A stretch of 64,000 nucleotides of DNA from Octopus vulgaris (Eukaryota), in the NCBI GenBank assembly GCA_951406725.2, contig OX597814.1, forward strand, positions 221,898,001-221,962,000, written 5' to 3'. Position 1 is the stretch's first letter. The number at the start of each line of letters is the position of its first letter. Positions 23,931-60,940 of this stretch are shown here, piece by piece. The position numbers and the translations under genes were made by a program. The notes under the pieces are model-generated. The model was not told the DNA's origin and did not search any database. It saw only the letters and a list, made by a program, of their open reading frames with translations.

Positions 23931-24340
23931 ACATTCTTCAGACTAGTCATCAGTAATAAGCAGTGTTTAGAATAGTGTGTTCAAAGTAGTGGTATAGCCT
24001 GTTTCTTCAGTCTGGAATAACGAAATTTAGCAACTCAGATTATTAGATATACAGTAATGACATACTGAATCAGAGTAACCTAGGACTGCCTCTCTTAATA
24101 TAGTTTCAGAATATCTGGAAAGTGATACACACATATACACACAATATATGCACACGCACATGCGCATATATATATATATTTCCCTCACGGGCTACTTTTT
24201 ACTGGAAGGCGATACTTTGTATTGCATTACTGATATTTTGAAACTTCTTCACCGTTTCTCGTGCTGTTAGCGTTCCGCATTTCAGTCGAGTGTGATAGTA
24301 TTAATGTGGTAACATCGTAAATTTCGTCTTGGTATATGCT

Positions 24341-24410
24341 TGGCTGATGAAGGTAAAATAAAATATGGGTGAGAGACATATCTTGTAAAACCTGAAACCT
24401 GCAGGTCCCA
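24341..24410 (+). ncRNA. Minimal type I hammerhead ribozyme motif in a Penelope-like pLTR remnant (about 24180-24605)
   Basis: TGG-CTGATGA-AGGT...ACCT-GAA-ACC tgca GGT-C-CCA; stem III region is the palindrome ACCTGCAGGT; GUC triplet; module flanked by (TA)n. Confidence 0.85.
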
Positions 24411-24601
24411 CATTATCCTTTTCCGGGTGTTTCATCTTTCAGATGTTCTCCCTGGAGGTAAGACGTTTTTTTGCTCTAGTTTGTTGCACACACGCATTTT
24501 TGCTAATACATACGCGGTGAAGCTACACATTAGCGTCGTATTTTTACGTTCGCTATTTCCAGTAAATATCGGTACTTAGTTGTGCCATTTATTTACTAAT
24601 T

Positions 24602-24660
<59 letters not shown>

Positions 24661-24861
24661 AACGATGAATAGCCTTTGCGCAAACCACTGATTCGTTTTG
24701 TTCTCTTACTTTATTATCATCTTATAATCATCTCATAATAATGACCTTTATGACTCGTATTACTACCTCAGTCAATCTAAATGTTTATATTTGTCACTAC
24801 CTGTCATAAATAGCCTTTTTCTATTTGCAATATGCATTTTCATTGATTTTTCATATTTTAC

Positions 24862-24923
<62 letters not shown>

Positions 24924-24924
<1 letters not shown>

Positions 24925-25121
24925 AAATAAGAAAATAGAGCGGATACAAAATGACATACATCACCCGGTAGACAATTCCAGTGTGTTTATTTATTCCAAA
25001 GCATTAGAAGAAAATATACACTTGTAGTAAATATGTTTTCTTCTAATGCTTTCTAATAGACACACTGGAATTGTCTACCGAATGATGTATGTCGTTTTGT
25101 ATCTTTTCCATTTTCTTATTT
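24924..25121. repeat. Imperfect inverted repeat (about 95-bp arms) between (TA)n tracts
   Basis: CAAATAAGAAAAT...GGTAGACAATTCCAGTGTGT...AAAGCATTAGAAGAAAA vs TTTTCTTCTAATGCTTT...ACACACTGGAATTGTCTACC...ATTTTCTTATTTG. Confidence 0.9.
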
Positions 25122-25292
25122 GCCGTTTAAATTAAGAGTAAACCACTTTTTACCCCCGCCCTTATATGACACTCAATTGCGAGATTGCCACGCAATAACC
25201 AGCATTTGGGTATGAATAATTGGGTACACTACCAGCAGTATATTGGATAGGTACCATCCCTTGGTTGGTTTCCCAACTTCTATTTCTCACAG

Positions 25293-25360
<68 letters not shown>

Positions 25361-25579
25361 CAATATTAGGGTAGCAAAAAATTCAATAGAAATTATTTTG
25401 CCACCAGCGGTCTAGTGAGAAAGAGGAAATAGTCAGAGACTATTAATAAATTCAACAACAAATTGAGGAACGGCTATAATAGGCCGTTCGACCCACTAGA
25501 AATAGCAACCAGGGCTAACCGCAAATAGTAGTAATTCCGGAATCAGAGGAAAAATTAAAAAAACATTTACCCTGTTCTT

Positions 25580-25689
25580 CTTTAGACAATGCATTGTTTC
25601 AGCGTTTTTTAATGGTAAACCAGCCTGATTAAATTAAATTAAACTTAATCAAGTCAATCTTCCAAAGGCCAACGCGTTCATCAGTAAAG
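25580..25689 (-). ncRNA. Type I hammerhead ribozyme motif (inverted copy)
   Basis: Reverse complement of 25938-26047. Confidence 0.88.
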
Positions 25690-25937
25690 GAGCCAGAAGG
25701 GACAGAAATTACATGAGGCAGCTACTAGACCGCTGGTGGCAAAATAATTTCAATTGAATTTTTTGCTACCCTAATATTGATTAATTGATAATTTTCTGAT
25801 TAATTCCGAAATTGAATCGGCAGTTTATATTTGCTGCCGATAAGTTGGCGCGAGTACGACGATTTTGAAAATTTTAGGTCAGATATTACCGAGGCATGAG
25901 GGTAGCTGCCTCGTGTAATTTCTGTCCCTTCTGGCTC

Positions 25938-26047
25938 CTTTACTGATGAACGCGTTGGCCTTTGGAAGATTGACTTGATTAAGTTTAATTTAATTTAATC
26001 AGGCTGGTTTACCATTAAAAAACGCTGAAACAATGCATTGTCTAAAG
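25938..26047 (+). ncRNA. Type I hammerhead ribozyme motif with long stem II
   Basis: CTTTA-CTGATGA-AcGCGTT...AACGCT-GAA-ACAATGCATTGT-C-TAAAG; palindromic stem III, GUC triplet. Confidence 0.9.
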
Positions 26048-26171
26048 AAGAACAGGGTAAATGTTTTTTTAATTTTTCCTCTGATTCCGGAATTACTACT
26101 ATTTGCTGTTAGCCCTGGTTGCTATTTCTAGTGGGTCGAACGGCCTATTATAGCCGTTCCTCAATTTGTTG

Positions 26172-26239
<68 letters not shown>

Positions 26240-27856
26240 ATATACATATATATATATATATACACGGTTCCATACATACGGATATATACAAAGATACAAA
26301 GGTACAAAAACAGATAAGATAGTAAATGATTTAGTTTCCTTATTTTGGTCGAATGCGCCAAAGAAATAGATGTGAAAACATAAAAGTTTACATGGTACAG
26401 TTTCAATTCAAGTTTCGCCAACAACTTTATTGGTTTTCCAGTCAAAATAAGTCTTGCCTGTGTTTTGAAGAATATTTTGCCTATGATTTCATTAGCATTC
26501 ATTTTCTCGTAAAAAAATTGTACAGTACTATATGAGGGAAGTATACCTATTATCATTAGCAGGATGATTGTAGGGTGGTTGCAAGAACCCTTACACTGAT
26601 ATTTCGTAATACCTCTTTAGTTCTCAGTTCATATCCACCAATGTCAAAACCAGTGTAATATTGGGTACAGTGCATAGAAACAATCGCACTAGGACAACGT
26701 ACTGAGGTAATGTATTCGCATGTGGGAGGACACCAGAGCTAAAACAGACTACCATGTAATTCTTTCAAAACAAGTCTATAAAACAACTAATAATTGGAAT
26801 CGCGTGAAAATCTGATACAAGAAAAAGAAAAAAATTTCGAGCGTGTTATATTCGCTGAAAATGTTTCCATGGAAATTCAATATTTTAATTTTTTTTATTT
26901 TATATTTTCGAAGAAGTAAAATTTGTGCAGTACAGACAAAGATTGTAGCCCCGTACGCATACTCAGCATAAGTAACGAAAATAACAATGTTACAAATAAA
27001 TTTGTATCTGTCAGATAAGTTATTACTGTAGAAATACGCATTGATTCGAATATTTAATTGCTCACTGACTTCACCTTTAATAGTTCGAATTCACTTCATC
27101 TTACTACAAAAACAACAGATGTGTGTGAGATATGATTTATATCGAAATATAATTTATGACTTTCTATCAAAGAAATAGAGGAGCTTCGAAACTGTGGTAA
27201 AGCAGTCATCGCGATAGGCGTTCGATTTCTTAAAAGAACATTTCAAAACAGTGTCATTCTTTTGCAGACTTCAGGTTGTTTTACTAAAAACTATTTAAAT
27301 GCAAAACCGTTGCCAGTGGACCAGTGATCAAGGAACGTGTCGTAACTTTTTGACGTGTTATCTACACAACTCGAAAGCTACAGTTAGCTTATATATTATA
27401 TACACAGGACCTTCCTTGGGAAGAATCTTAATAAAGCAGACCAAGACAAAACAACACCTTATACATATCGCCCTATAGTTTTATCACACATGAAGTTGTA
27501 TGCTTGTGGTCTTACGTGTTGTATAAAACTATGTACTCGAAAGTAACATCGAACATGTTCTCACAGGCGTTAAAAAATAACTTTATGCTAATCTTGTGTC
27601 AAAATCAATAATTATTTTAAATTCAGTAAAATTAATGCACAGCTTGTCTGCAATTTTGGTAGGTGATGCTTGTTATAAAATTATCACATTTTAGCTTGTT
27701 AAGCAGGTCAGACTCAAAAAGTTCAGGTGCTTTATTTCATAATATCATTGCCGAACTTGTTTTCTGTGGATGCATCCGCATTCTCTTTCTAGAGAAACAA
27801 GAATTTCAACCTCATGTTTAGATCAAGTATTTAGTATTTCCAATAAGACATTTAAC

Positions 27857-36809: not shown

Positions 36810-38044
36810 CAGGGGTTGGACAAAATAATGGAAACACCTAGCATCATAGCAGCATAATTTTGAAATATCTATAAAGCCGCCAAAAACTTATTTTTATGTT
36901 TTTTGATATATTATTAGTGTTGCCTAACATATTTTGCTAAAATTGCCGTTTCTTTTCAGACATCATCAGAAAAAAGGTAATTAAAATTCATTAAAATGAT
37001 AGATCTATCGAACTTTCAAAGCAGTCAAATTGTTGGTGCTACAGTAATGAAAACGGCCGAAATGTTTTGTGTATCAAGGAGTACTGTCCCGAAAGTAATG
37101 ACAGCCTGTGAGAAAGAAGTAAAAGCCTTCTCGTCGAAAACCAAAGAAAACCAAAGCTTTCAGATAGGGACTGTCGGAATCTTACGCGAATTGTTAGAAT
37201 GGATCACAAAAGTACAGCTTTCCAAATTACTGTAGAGTTTTATGACAACCTCGAGAAACCAGTTTTCACAAAATCTCTTGGCCGGGAGCTGCACCAAACC
37301 GGATTTCACGGGGCTGCAATCAGATAAAAGCTATTTTCAAAAACAAACGTTGCAAAGCGTTTGAGTGGAGTAAAAACCTACAGAATTGGTCCCTAGAGCA
37401 GTGGGAGAATGTTGTTTTCTCGGATGAGTCATCCTTAACCTTATATCCGATCAACAGCCGAGTATATGTGTGGAGACAGCCAAAAGAAGCATTTAACCCA
37501 CACTGCCTTCTTCCAACTGTTAAACATGGAGGAGGATCTGTGATGATCGGGGGTGGGGGGGCTATATCTTGGAAATCCGCCAGCCCAATGGCTTTCCTTC
37601 ATTGCAGAATTAATAGTCAAGATTATTTAAGCATTTTATCTAATCAAATTCATCCTATGATTGCGGAACTGTTTCCGGAGGGAAACGCAATCTTTCAGGA
37701 TGATAATGCACCAATTCACACAGCCAAAGTTGTTACTGAATGGCACGAGAAACATTCTAGTAAAGTTGAACATCATATCTGGCCACCACAGTCCCCAGAT
37801 ATCAATATTATTGAAAATTTATGGTGTATTTTAGAAAAACAAGTAAGGAGTCGATATCCACCACCCTCATCACTACAAGAACTGGAGACTGTTTGAGCTA
37901 AAGAATGGACAAAAATTCCTTTGGAAACAATTCAAACAATTCATAACTCGTAGACTTCAAGCTGTAATTACTGCCAGAGGCGATCCTACGCCATATTGAA
38001 ATGATTTGTTTGAAAGGTGTTTCCATTATTTTGTTCAACCTCTG
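36810..38044 (+). mobile_element. Tc1-family (DD34E) DNA transposon, both ends present, frameshifted transposase
   Basis: 30-bp TIRs CAGGGGTTGGACAAAATAATGGAAACACCT (2 mismatches), TA on both flanks; FSDES, VKHGGGSVM, FQDDNAPIH and WPPQSPDINIIENLW motifs. Confidence 0.95.
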
Positions 38045-60021: not shown

Positions 60022-60044
60022 TATAATTCTCCATTCTTATTTAT

Positions 60045-60940
60045 GATGTTTTGATTATATACTCTATATGCTGTAGTGTGGAAGTGTCACGTTGGGGGTT
60101 GGGTCGAAGGTTTAGGAAGTGCTTGAGTGCAAGAAGTTCTTTGTTGTGTGGAATCACCGTATATAGACTCTTGATATGAAGAATGAAGAGCAGTTTAGAG
60201 GGACCAGAAAGGAAGAAGAAAGAGTTGGAGAGACGGAGAACATAGTTACTGTCGTGGATGTGGGAGGGGTGGAAAACCACTGGGGTGGGGGCAAGGACAC
60301 GGGTGAGGTATCTTGCGATCATTTCCGTGGGGCAGTTACAGGTGGAGAGGATGGGGCAGCCAGGGTTGTTGGGATCGTGGATTTTGGGAAGGAAGTCAAT
60401 GGTAGAGGTGCGTGGAATGCGAACAATAAGGTTGGAGGCGGTGGGAGGGAGACGGAAGTGGGTGATGAGATCATGGATAGTGGAGAACACAGTCTGTTGG
60501 TAGTTAGGTGTAGGGTTGGAGGGCAGAGTGCAATAGAAGGAGGTGTCTTGAAGTTGGCGGAGAACTTCAACATTGCAGAGATCTGCGCGTCACACCACCA
60601 CGGCTCCACCTTTGTCAGCCGGCTTTATGATGATATCTTTGTGGGGACATCGAAAGGCCGAGAGTTCGGTCGGGGAGATGTTAAAATGTCGGGGACGCCT
60701 ACGAAAGTTAAACCGGTCCACAACAGGTTGAAAGATGCTTGCAAAATGATCGACTGCTTGGAACTAGCCAGTAGCTGGCGTCCAGGTTGGATGGTCGGCG
60801 ACCCAGGTCGGTGAGGCAGTTCTCTTCATTAGATGCAGGTAGAGTGTTGTGGAATAGTGCATATAGCCTGACGCGGCGCACAAAGCTTTGAATATCAGCA
60901 AAGGTCTGAAATTTGTTACTAGATAGAACTAATATCAGCA
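60045..60940 (-). mobile_element. Penelope-like element reverse transcriptase fragment (decayed)
   Basis: DIIIKPADKGGAVVV, LPKIHDPNNPGCPILSTCNCPTE (cf. LPKIHKPxxPGRPI) and LHIKSLYTVIPH (cf. LDxxSLYTxIP) are PLE-diagnostic motifs. Confidence 0.92.

What the first reader, a model, noticed from the sequence alone, without database searches (positions are those of the whole stretch)
25357..26173. Interleaved double inversion (A-B-A'-B') carrying two opposed, intact hammerheads
The about 270-bp B arms are almost identical and interleave with a 60-bp A/A' pair, all between (TA)n tracts. The hammerhead has a 12-nt palindromic stem III (ACAATGCATTGT) and an unusually long stem II extension (CTTGATTAAGTT/AATTTAATCAGG). 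B also contains a separate perfect hairpin GAACGGC-TATAATAG-GCCGTTC. This suggests a young insertion made by repeated template switching or fold-back.
Basis: partly seen in the sequence, partly recalled or inferred. Interest (0 to 1): 0.7.

Follow-up and report, generated by a model that had tools for sequence, protein, structure and literature searches.

The report
Two-armed Penelope-type hammerhead retrozyme insertion
This 815-base stretch is one young copy of a many-copy, protein-less repeat of about 487 bases that carries a predicted self-cutting hammerhead RNA; it sits as two back-to-back arms that were likely copied separately from its RNA by a Penelope-type retrotransposon enzyme, so it is a single inversion of a known kind of genomic parasite, not a double inversion.

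Summary
The geometry and both hammerheads are real, but there is no double inversion. The family is a circularly permuted ~487-bp non-coding monomer. Here the left arm is one inverted piece (monomer 177>487>57) and the right arm is 486>447; the A-B-A'-B' look follows from the permutation. Copies end at two fixed 3' sites ~100 nt apart (E1, E2) against (TA)n. 89 of 91 classifiable head-to-head copies carry one of each: the Penelope inverted-arm-plus-one-tail footprint. Each arm here holds sequence the other lacks, which excludes simple fold-back. Arms elsewhere run up to 3.7 seamless turns with near-identical repeats, as expected from reverse transcription around an RNA circle. Hammerhead stems covary across subfamilies. 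Best reading: a non-LTR retrozyme inserted by two-sided target-primed reverse transcription by a Penelope-like enzyme. Cleavage, circles and the partner element are not shown; this copy is predicted inactive. Opposite-strand hammerhead pairs and one-sided tails are in print, and this scan noted similar families before, in this genome and others. New member of a known kind; the strict end-pairing rule is the useful part.

The parts
25295..25357 (.). (TA)n tract, left side of the target
   Evidence: 175 of 191 arm 3' ends in the family abut (TA)n, against 2.9% background
25358..25725 (-). Left arm: one continuous 368-nt piece of the monomer (177>487>57), 5'-truncated, ending at the downstream 3' site E2 (tailed arm)
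25358..25454 (-).
25580..25689 (-). Type I hammerhead motif, left-arm copy; predicted cut after 25585
   Evidence: identical to the + copy
25724..25725 (.). Single head-to-head junction of the two arms, 2-bp overlap
25724..26172 (+). Right arm: 449-nt piece of the monomer (486>487>447), ending at the upstream 3' site E1 (untailed arm)
25783..25901 (+). Monomer segment 58-176, present only in the right arm
25938..26047 (+). Type I hammerhead motif with 12-nt palindromic stem III and 77-nt stem II region; predicted cut after C26042
26138..26159 (+). 7-bp hairpin just upstream of E1 (mirror copy 25468-25489); candidate part of the enzyme-binding signal (inferred)
26173..26262 (.). (TA)n tract, right side of the target

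Best explanation
This is one copy of a dispersed, non-coding ~487-bp hammerhead repeat, sitting as two head-to-head arms in a (TA)n tract, that was likely inserted by a Penelope-like (PLE) reverse transcriptase/GIY-YIG enzyme acting in trans. Shown: circularly permuted monomer, two fixed 3' ends about 100 nt apart, one of each per two-armed insertion, variable 5' ends, (TA)n targets, multi-turn arms with homogenised repeats, covarying hammerhead stems. Inferred steps: (1) source loci with two co-oriented hammerheads are transcribed, self-cleave and give a ~485-nt monomer, most likely circularised; (2) the enzyme nicks both strands of a (TA)n tract; (3) each nick primes cDNA synthesis internally on the RNA, one at E1 and one at E2; (4) each cDNA runs a variable distance, sometimes more than once round; (5) the two cDNA ends are joined through short overlaps or filler bases, giving one inversion with both 3' ends pointing outward. 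This copy has under one turn per arm and its hammerheads would be buried in the B:B' duplex, so it is predicted to be a dead end.
For: Permuted monomer and single junction. End pairing: 60 E1+E2, 2 E1+E1, 0 E2+E2 and 5 with one unclassified end among 67 two-arm loci (123 unique of 215 fetched). Separate tail-anchored sample: 19 E1+E2, 0 same-end, 4 unclassified of 23 (58 new of 70 fetched). A further 10 E1+E2 and 2 unclassified of 12, counted by eye (16 new of 30). Pooled 89 of 91 classifiable, 11 set aside, p=3e-24 against 0.5. (TA)n at 175 of 191 3' ends. Neither arm nested in the other in 33 of 59. Arms of 1044, 1321 and 1806 nt; four full turns at L312 differ by 0-3 of ~483 nt, against 6-84 to other loci. 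Tandem repeats within one arm share 253 non-majority alleles against 76 discordant positions (27 loci, 4203 positions); 17 of the shared alleles occur in at most one other locus. First stem II pair is A-T 44, G-C 38, G-T 3, never mismatched, in 85 of 86 parsed hammerheads; a compensated palindromic stem III occurs in another subfamily. Autonomous RT+GIY-YIG PLEs that end in (TA)n with optional ~40-nt tails are present and young in this genome. Literature: tail at one end and inverted 5'-truncated arm (PMC8557442, PMC3846280); purified PLE protein cleaves and extends both strands and starts internally at two sites bounding the tail (PMC11167929).
Against: No autonomous element sharing sequence with the monomer was found. 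No cleavage or circle data. Rfam has no hammerhead match. The active fold is not the minimum-energy fold (-22.5 against -26.0 kcal/mol; stem I probability about 0.16 in the right arm alone). The tail is ~100 nt, not the 30-40 nt in print. PMC11167929 saw no strand difference in start site and found hammerhead cleavage unnecessary in vitro. In 26 of 59 loci one arm is nested in the other, and five loci have both arms starting at the same base (L009, L285, L330, L344, L376), which fold-back could also give. The excess of 5' ends just downstream of the predicted cut is modest (25/94 against 9/69, p=0.027) and not significant in the second sample (11/47 against 4/36, p=0.12). Shared alleles could also come from tandem source arrays or gene conversion.
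Confidence: 0.62

Rival explanations
1. Same PLE-driven two-sided insertion, but the template is a linear multimeric transcript from tandem source loci and the hammerhead plays no part in making it.
For: Tandem arrays exist; PMC11167929 found uncut RNA to be the main substrate in vitro; five long arms start at monomer 195-211, which could mark a transcript start.
Against: Longer arms pass that point; near-private alleles are shared by both repeats of an arm in 9 of 27 loci; hammerhead stems covary across subfamilies; pooled excess of 5' ends just after the cut site, 36/141 against 13/105, p=0.008.
Confidence: 0.25
2. LINE-type twin priming: a LINE enzyme primes at the RNA 3' end and a second time internally, inverting the 5' part (mechanism recalled from L1 literature, not from a call).
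For: It gives head-to-head arms with short overlaps; this locus alone fits it (59-bp duplication).
Against: The second priming site is fixed (E2, monomer 49-69) rather than random; arms overlap by hundreds of bases; no poly(A) or LINE-type tail; internal double start and one-sided tail are PLE hallmarks (PMC11167929, PMC8557442).
Confidence: 0.06
3. One reading: two interleaved inversions made by repeated template switching or cDNA fold-back.
For: The A-B-A'-B' pattern is real; 26 of 59 other loci have nested arms and five have symmetric centres, so fold-back may occur in some copies.
Against: A, spacer and B are contiguous in the family, so only one junction exists; each arm here holds sequence absent from the other (25417-25454; 25783-25901).
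Confidence: 0.04
4. Assembly artefact (palindromic chimeric read).
For: No contig bridged the junction in 4 of 4 runs laid, but those contigs are short fragments of a repeat, so this says little.
Against: The arms differ at 3 positions, each a single-arm departure from the family majority; they end at different biological sites; about 100 other loci show the same plan with different junctions.
Confidence: 0.02

Closest known systems
Metazoan non-LTR retrozymes (Cervera and de la Pena 2020, PMC7229834; Li et al. 2026, bioRxiv 10.64898/2026.07.22.740005)
   Same: Non-coding, low-GC, short repeat with a type I hammerhead; monomers, dimers and multimers; PLEs proposed as the mobiliser.
   Different: Monomer of 474-497 bp, slightly above the 150-450 bp cited; mostly dispersed, 5'-truncated, two-armed insertions with fixed ends; circular RNA not shown here; no matching PLE pLTR found, whereas Li et al. 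found such matches for 21 of 57 Xenopus families.
EN+ Penelope-like element insertions (PMC8557442, PMC3846280, PMC11167929)
   Same: Partial tandems, adjacent inverted 5'-truncated arm, tail at one end, AT-rich or (TA)n targets, hammerhead upstream of the 3' end.
   Different: No ORF; tail about 100 nt rather than 30-40 nt; tail-plus-no-tail pairing is near-absolute here (89 of 91), whereas the papers call the tail optional or often at one end; arms wrap up to 3.7 times.
Minimal hammerheads of PLEs (Cervera and de la Pena 2014, PMC4209133)
   Same: Type I topology, 5-bp stem I, palindromic stem III suited to dimer cleavage; pairs on opposite strands 100-700 bp apart were already reported.
   Different: Stem III can form 4 bp as a monomer; stem II carries a 60-70-nt extension; the bulge is after the first stem II pair.

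Membership tests
Type I hammerhead ribozyme | Core CUGANGA / GAAA / UH in type I order | tested here: met
   canonical in both window copies and in 69 of 85 parsed copies; 9 more are U4C, 7 are single-copy decays; 286 exact descriptor matches genome-wide, 0 for the reversed control
Type I hammerhead ribozyme | Three stems supported by covariation | tested here: met
   pair 10.1-11.1 never mismatched; several alternative stem II pair sets; compensated stem III palindrome; sixth stem I pair T-A or A-T in two groups but mismatched in the window's own group. Copies are related, so events are fewer than counts.
Type I hammerhead ribozyme | Match to an Rfam hammerhead model | tested here: not met
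   the long stem II insert is the likely cause (inference)
Type I hammerhead ribozyme | Self-cleavage | not testable with these tools
   only indirect: 5' end excess after the predicted cut
Non-LTR retrozyme | Short non-coding repeat with a type I hammerhead, no ORF | tested here: met
   no frame of 120 aa or more within the element; no PLE protein match inside arms
Non-LTR retrozyme | Head-to-tail copies with two or more complete hammerheads (family level) | tested here: met
   L312 has four in tandem at 483-nt spacing; L301, L306, L184 and others have two or three
Non-LTR retrozyme | Two consecutive hammerhead units at this locus (Li et al. definition of active) | tested here: not met
   one hammerhead per arm, on opposite strands
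Non-LTR retrozyme | Expressed as linear and circular monomer RNA | not testable with these tools
   only contigs of runs guessed to be RNA were available
PLE-type insertion footprint | Inverted 5'-truncated arm and partial tandems | tested here: met
PLE-type insertion footprint | Tail at one end from two RT start sites | tested here: met
   89 of 91; length about 100 nt, longer than published
PLE-type insertion footprint | AT-rich or microsatellite target | tested here: met
   175 of 191
PLE-type insertion footprint | Target-site duplication | not testable with these tools
   both flanks are (TA)n; no empty allele available
Autonomous PLE | RT plus GIY-YIG ORF | tested here: not met
Derivative of a specific PLE | Sequence homology to the pLTR of an autonomous PLE | tested here: inconclusive
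   none in 50 GIY-YIG loci examined, drawn from 150 scored of 6136 candidates; the one hit (L088) was a nested stub

The most novel reading that the evidence does not exclude
The family is a genome-scale record of a PLE enzyme dimer copying a circular ribozyme RNA from both nicks of one target with obligate asymmetry: one active site always starts at E1 and the other at E2, 100 nt apart, and either can roll several times round the circle, possibly on two RNA circles held together by the palindromic stem III. This would explain inverted arms, one-sided tails and tandem pLTRs of Penelope elements by one mechanism and tie animal retrozyme circles directly to PLE enzymes.
Probability: 0.3. Interest if true: 0.68.

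Novelty: new member of a known kind. Interest (0 to 1): 0.42.

Why it matters
How Penelope-like elements make inverted, one-tailed insertions, and whether animal retrozymes travel as circles copied by PLE enzymes, are both open questions (PMC8557442, PMC11167929, PMC7229834). This small family gives counts that any model must fit: one start site per strand in 89 of 91 two-arm copies, arms not copied from each other, and multi-turn homogenised arms. It also offers a 487-nt substrate for an in vitro test. The locus itself is an ordinary dead-end copy; if transcribed it would form about 270 bp of near-perfect double-stranded RNA.

Tried and rejected
Rfam scan: no hammerhead match. Search for the autonomous partner: GIY-YIG loci; the L088 lead was a 55-bp E1 stub beside an unrelated older repeat family; ORF fragments near 7 family loci were neighbours in shared (TA)n tracts or undecidable; none in a further 100 loci beyond one already seen and one short hit in L376 that I did not follow up. 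A hard 5' limit at monomer 195-211 was considered after and dropped. Covariation in the E1-E2 region: 81 sequences aligned, too conserved, and the consensus fold did not recover the single-sequence fold, so that structure is only predicted. Sequencing runs: no RNA holder listed; no contig bridged the locus junction in 4 runs; neither is evidence for or against. A recount with looser alignment scoring gave 74 E1+E2, 2 E1+E1 and 10 with unclassified ends among 157 unique of 275 loci. The scan's sequence look-up found nothing. No host gene context was established. No paper supplements were opened; Fig. S2 of PMC11167929 and the family lists of PMC7229834, PMC13282606 and the 2026 preprint may bear on end-pairing and on whether this family is already catalogued.

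Full report
Observation. B (25455-25725) and B' (25902-26172) are inverted copies with 2 mismatches in 271 bp, A (25358-25416) and A' (25724-25782) with 1 in 59 bp, interleaved, between (TA)n tracts. Both B copies hold an identical type I hammerhead motif with the predicted cut at GUC 26040-26042. Rfam did not recognise it.

The family. The host genome G000 has 2.8 Gb in 227 contigs; its size and microsatellites look octopus-like (my inference, not tested). The right arm finds 1403-2356 candidate places per search, of which 40 are scored each time. A hammerhead descriptor has 286 exact matches and a 20-nt tail motif 346, with 0 for reversed controls. In other copies B' runs straight into the 40-nt spacer and then into A'; a contig of run X17 shows the same join. 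The unit is therefore a circularly permuted monomer of about 487 bp (474-497 in other subfamilies). With position 1 at window 25726, the left arm is one inverted piece 177>487>57 and the right arm is 486>447. There is one junction, with a 2-bp overlap at 25724-25725. The double inversion is an effect of the permutation.

Two fixed ends. Arms have scattered 5' starts but stop at two 3' sites: E1 (about 445-450) and E2 (49-69, mostly 56-67), roughly 100 nt apart. 175 of 191 such ends abut (TA)n, against 2.9% of random window positions; 25 of 54 single-arm 5' ends do too. Of 123 unique loci (215 fetched), 67 were head-to-head: 60 E1+E2, 2 E1+E1, 0 E2+E2, 5 with one end unclassified; 54 were single arms and 2 complex. 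Older subfamilies added 10 E1+E2 and 2 unclassified, counted by eye. A tail-anchored sample added 19 E1+E2, no same-end pair and 4 unclassified. Pooled: 89 of 91 classifiable, 11 set aside; independent choice of ends gives at most half (p=3e-24). The E2 window was 52-69 and 48-69, and arms under 30 nt were not scored. Loci were found by one arm, so the partner arm was not selected. The two exceptions are L009 (symmetric) and L271 (four arms).

Not fold-back. Fold-back copies one arm from the other, so one must be nested in the other. Here each arm has its own sequence (25417-25454 left, 25783-25901 right). Across 59 simple two-arm loci, 33 are not nested and 26 are; five loci have symmetric centres, so fold-back is not excluded for a minority. 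Junctions show overlap in 23, blunt joins in 7 and extra bases in 29 of 59; some of the extra bases are duplications of nearby element sequence and some may be alignment erosion.

Template. Arms reach 1044 (L184), 1321 (L301) and 1806 nt (L312, 3.7 turns) while keeping the fixed ends. Full turns within L312 differ by 0-3 nt, against 6-84 nt to other loci. Over 27 loci with tandem overlap, repeats share 253 non-majority alleles against 76 discordant sites, and 17 shared alleles in 9 loci occur in at most one other locus. Both repeats are thus regenerated from one sequence, which a circular monomer explains directly; tandem source arrays or conversion could also do so. 5' ends pile up just downstream of the predicted cut (318-347 against 288-317): 25/94 against 9/69, p=0.027; 11/47 against 4/36, p=0.12 in the second sample; pooled p=0.008. 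A stall at the ribozyme or joining in the adjacent T-rich tract would look similar, so this is only a hint of cleavage in vivo.

Ribozyme. Of 86 complete motifs, 85 parsed. The first stem II pair is A-T 44, G-C 38, G-T 3 and never mismatched, and subfamilies use different complementary stem II sets. Stem III is the exact palindrome in 76, a wobble variant in 7, broken in 2; another subfamily has a fully compensated palindrome. Alone, the 12-mer does not fold but dimerises at -15.1 kcal/mol, in line with dimer cleavage proposed for PLE hammerheads (PMC4209133). Against activity: the active fold is 3.5 kcal/mol above the minimum (z=-2.07 for the region). In a transcript through the whole insertion all 110 hammerhead bases pair with the opposite arm. 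With one motif per strand this copy could not release a monomer; it is predicted to be a dead end. Arm divergence is 0.9% (95% range 0.2-2.6%), so it is young.

Partner. The genome holds a young PLE family (479-aa ORF plus 781-aa RT/GIY-YIG ORF, most copies 97-99% alike) that ends in (TA)n with an optional ~40-nt tail, and a second PLE at L352 with a ~45-nt tail on one arm. Neither shares sequence with the monomer. L294 joins a two-turn E2 arm head-to-head, without (TA)n between, to a pLTR stub resembling the 781-aa family; L024 continues directly from a PLE 3' end. Either could be a co-insertion or a later insertion into the same tract; in L294 both arms are tailed, which breaks the rule above. 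The partner is not identified.

Comparison with what is known. It works like a PLE insertion: inverted 5'-truncated arm, tail often at one end only, microsatellite bias (PMC8557442, passages; PMC3846280, passages). Purified PLE protein cleaves and extends both strands, prefers AT-rich DNA, is predicted to be a dimer and starts internally at two sites that bound the tail, with no strand difference seen (PMC11167929, parts 1-2 of 4). Opposite-strand hammerhead pairs 100-700 bp apart were reported in 2014 (PMC4209133, part 1 of 4). By membership the family fits non-LTR retrozymes except for the untested circular RNA (PMC7229834, passages; bioRxiv 10.64898/2026.07.22.740005, part 1 of 5 and passages). 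PMC13282606 (passages) lists 31 recently active Penelope-like families in an octopus genome and does not mention ribozymes. In four literature searches and the passages read I found no count of strict one-tail pairing or of multi-turn arms with fixed PLE ends; I did not open supplements. L1 twin priming is recalled, not read. The scan's own notes describe similar families in this genome and others; they came after my reading was formed and I did not test them.

Verdict. Observation confirmed; interpretation partly supported; new member of a known kind. Identity as a PLE-type non-autonomous hammerhead element about 0.9; the full mechanism with a circular template about 0.6. Interest 0.42.

Noticed in passing
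window 24344-24407 (+): A second hammerhead-like motif of another family, with a palindromic stem III, in a stub between (TA)n tracts (about 24180-24603); one 76% relative seen in L128.
   Followed up: partly
window 24657-24863 and 24923-25294: Two more repeat stubs separated by (TA)n tracts; the first recurs as inverted arms beside a PLE ORF in L072/L354, the second begins with a ~200-nt near-perfect hairpin (-116 kcal/mol). The region 24180-26260 looks like a row of serial insertions into one TA tract.
   Followed up: partly
window 60041-60589 (-): Frame resembling a decayed PLE-type reverse transcriptase by eye; no Pfam match and no tblastn match to the two PLE proteins used.
   Followed up: partly
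window 37246-37896 (+): Frame resembling a Tc1/mariner transposase fragment, recognised from memory.
   Followed up: no
L116-L131: Young two-ORF PLE family (479 aa plus 781 aa, CX4CXXC linker before GIY-YIG) with a hammerhead-like motif of the U3/A8 type in its pLTR, (TA)n targets and an optional ~40-nt tail.
   Followed up: partly
L294:2320-2600 (L351): Retrozyme arm joined head-to-head, through a short duplicated motif and without (TA)n, to a pLTR stub resembling the 781-aa family: possible co-insertion and the only hint at a partner.
   Followed up: partly
run X17, contig 24, laid on window 25726-26172: About ten T>C changes in one contig of a run guessed to be RNA, nearly all absent from DNA run X1: possible A-to-I hyper-editing of an antisense transcript of some copy; single contig, no matched DNA.
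   Followed up: no
L073, L274, L302, L224, L225, L323: Apparent single arms that by eye carry a 5-25-nt inverted stub of the opposite end type, which would extend the E1+E2 rule; not counted formally.
   Followed up: partly
L136-L160: An older (about 83% alike) repeat family, also with head-to-head arms in some copies and a decayed hammerhead-like motif.
   Followed up: partly
L344: Both arms begin at monomer 317, the predicted cut site; the junction was not examined at base level.
   Followed up: no
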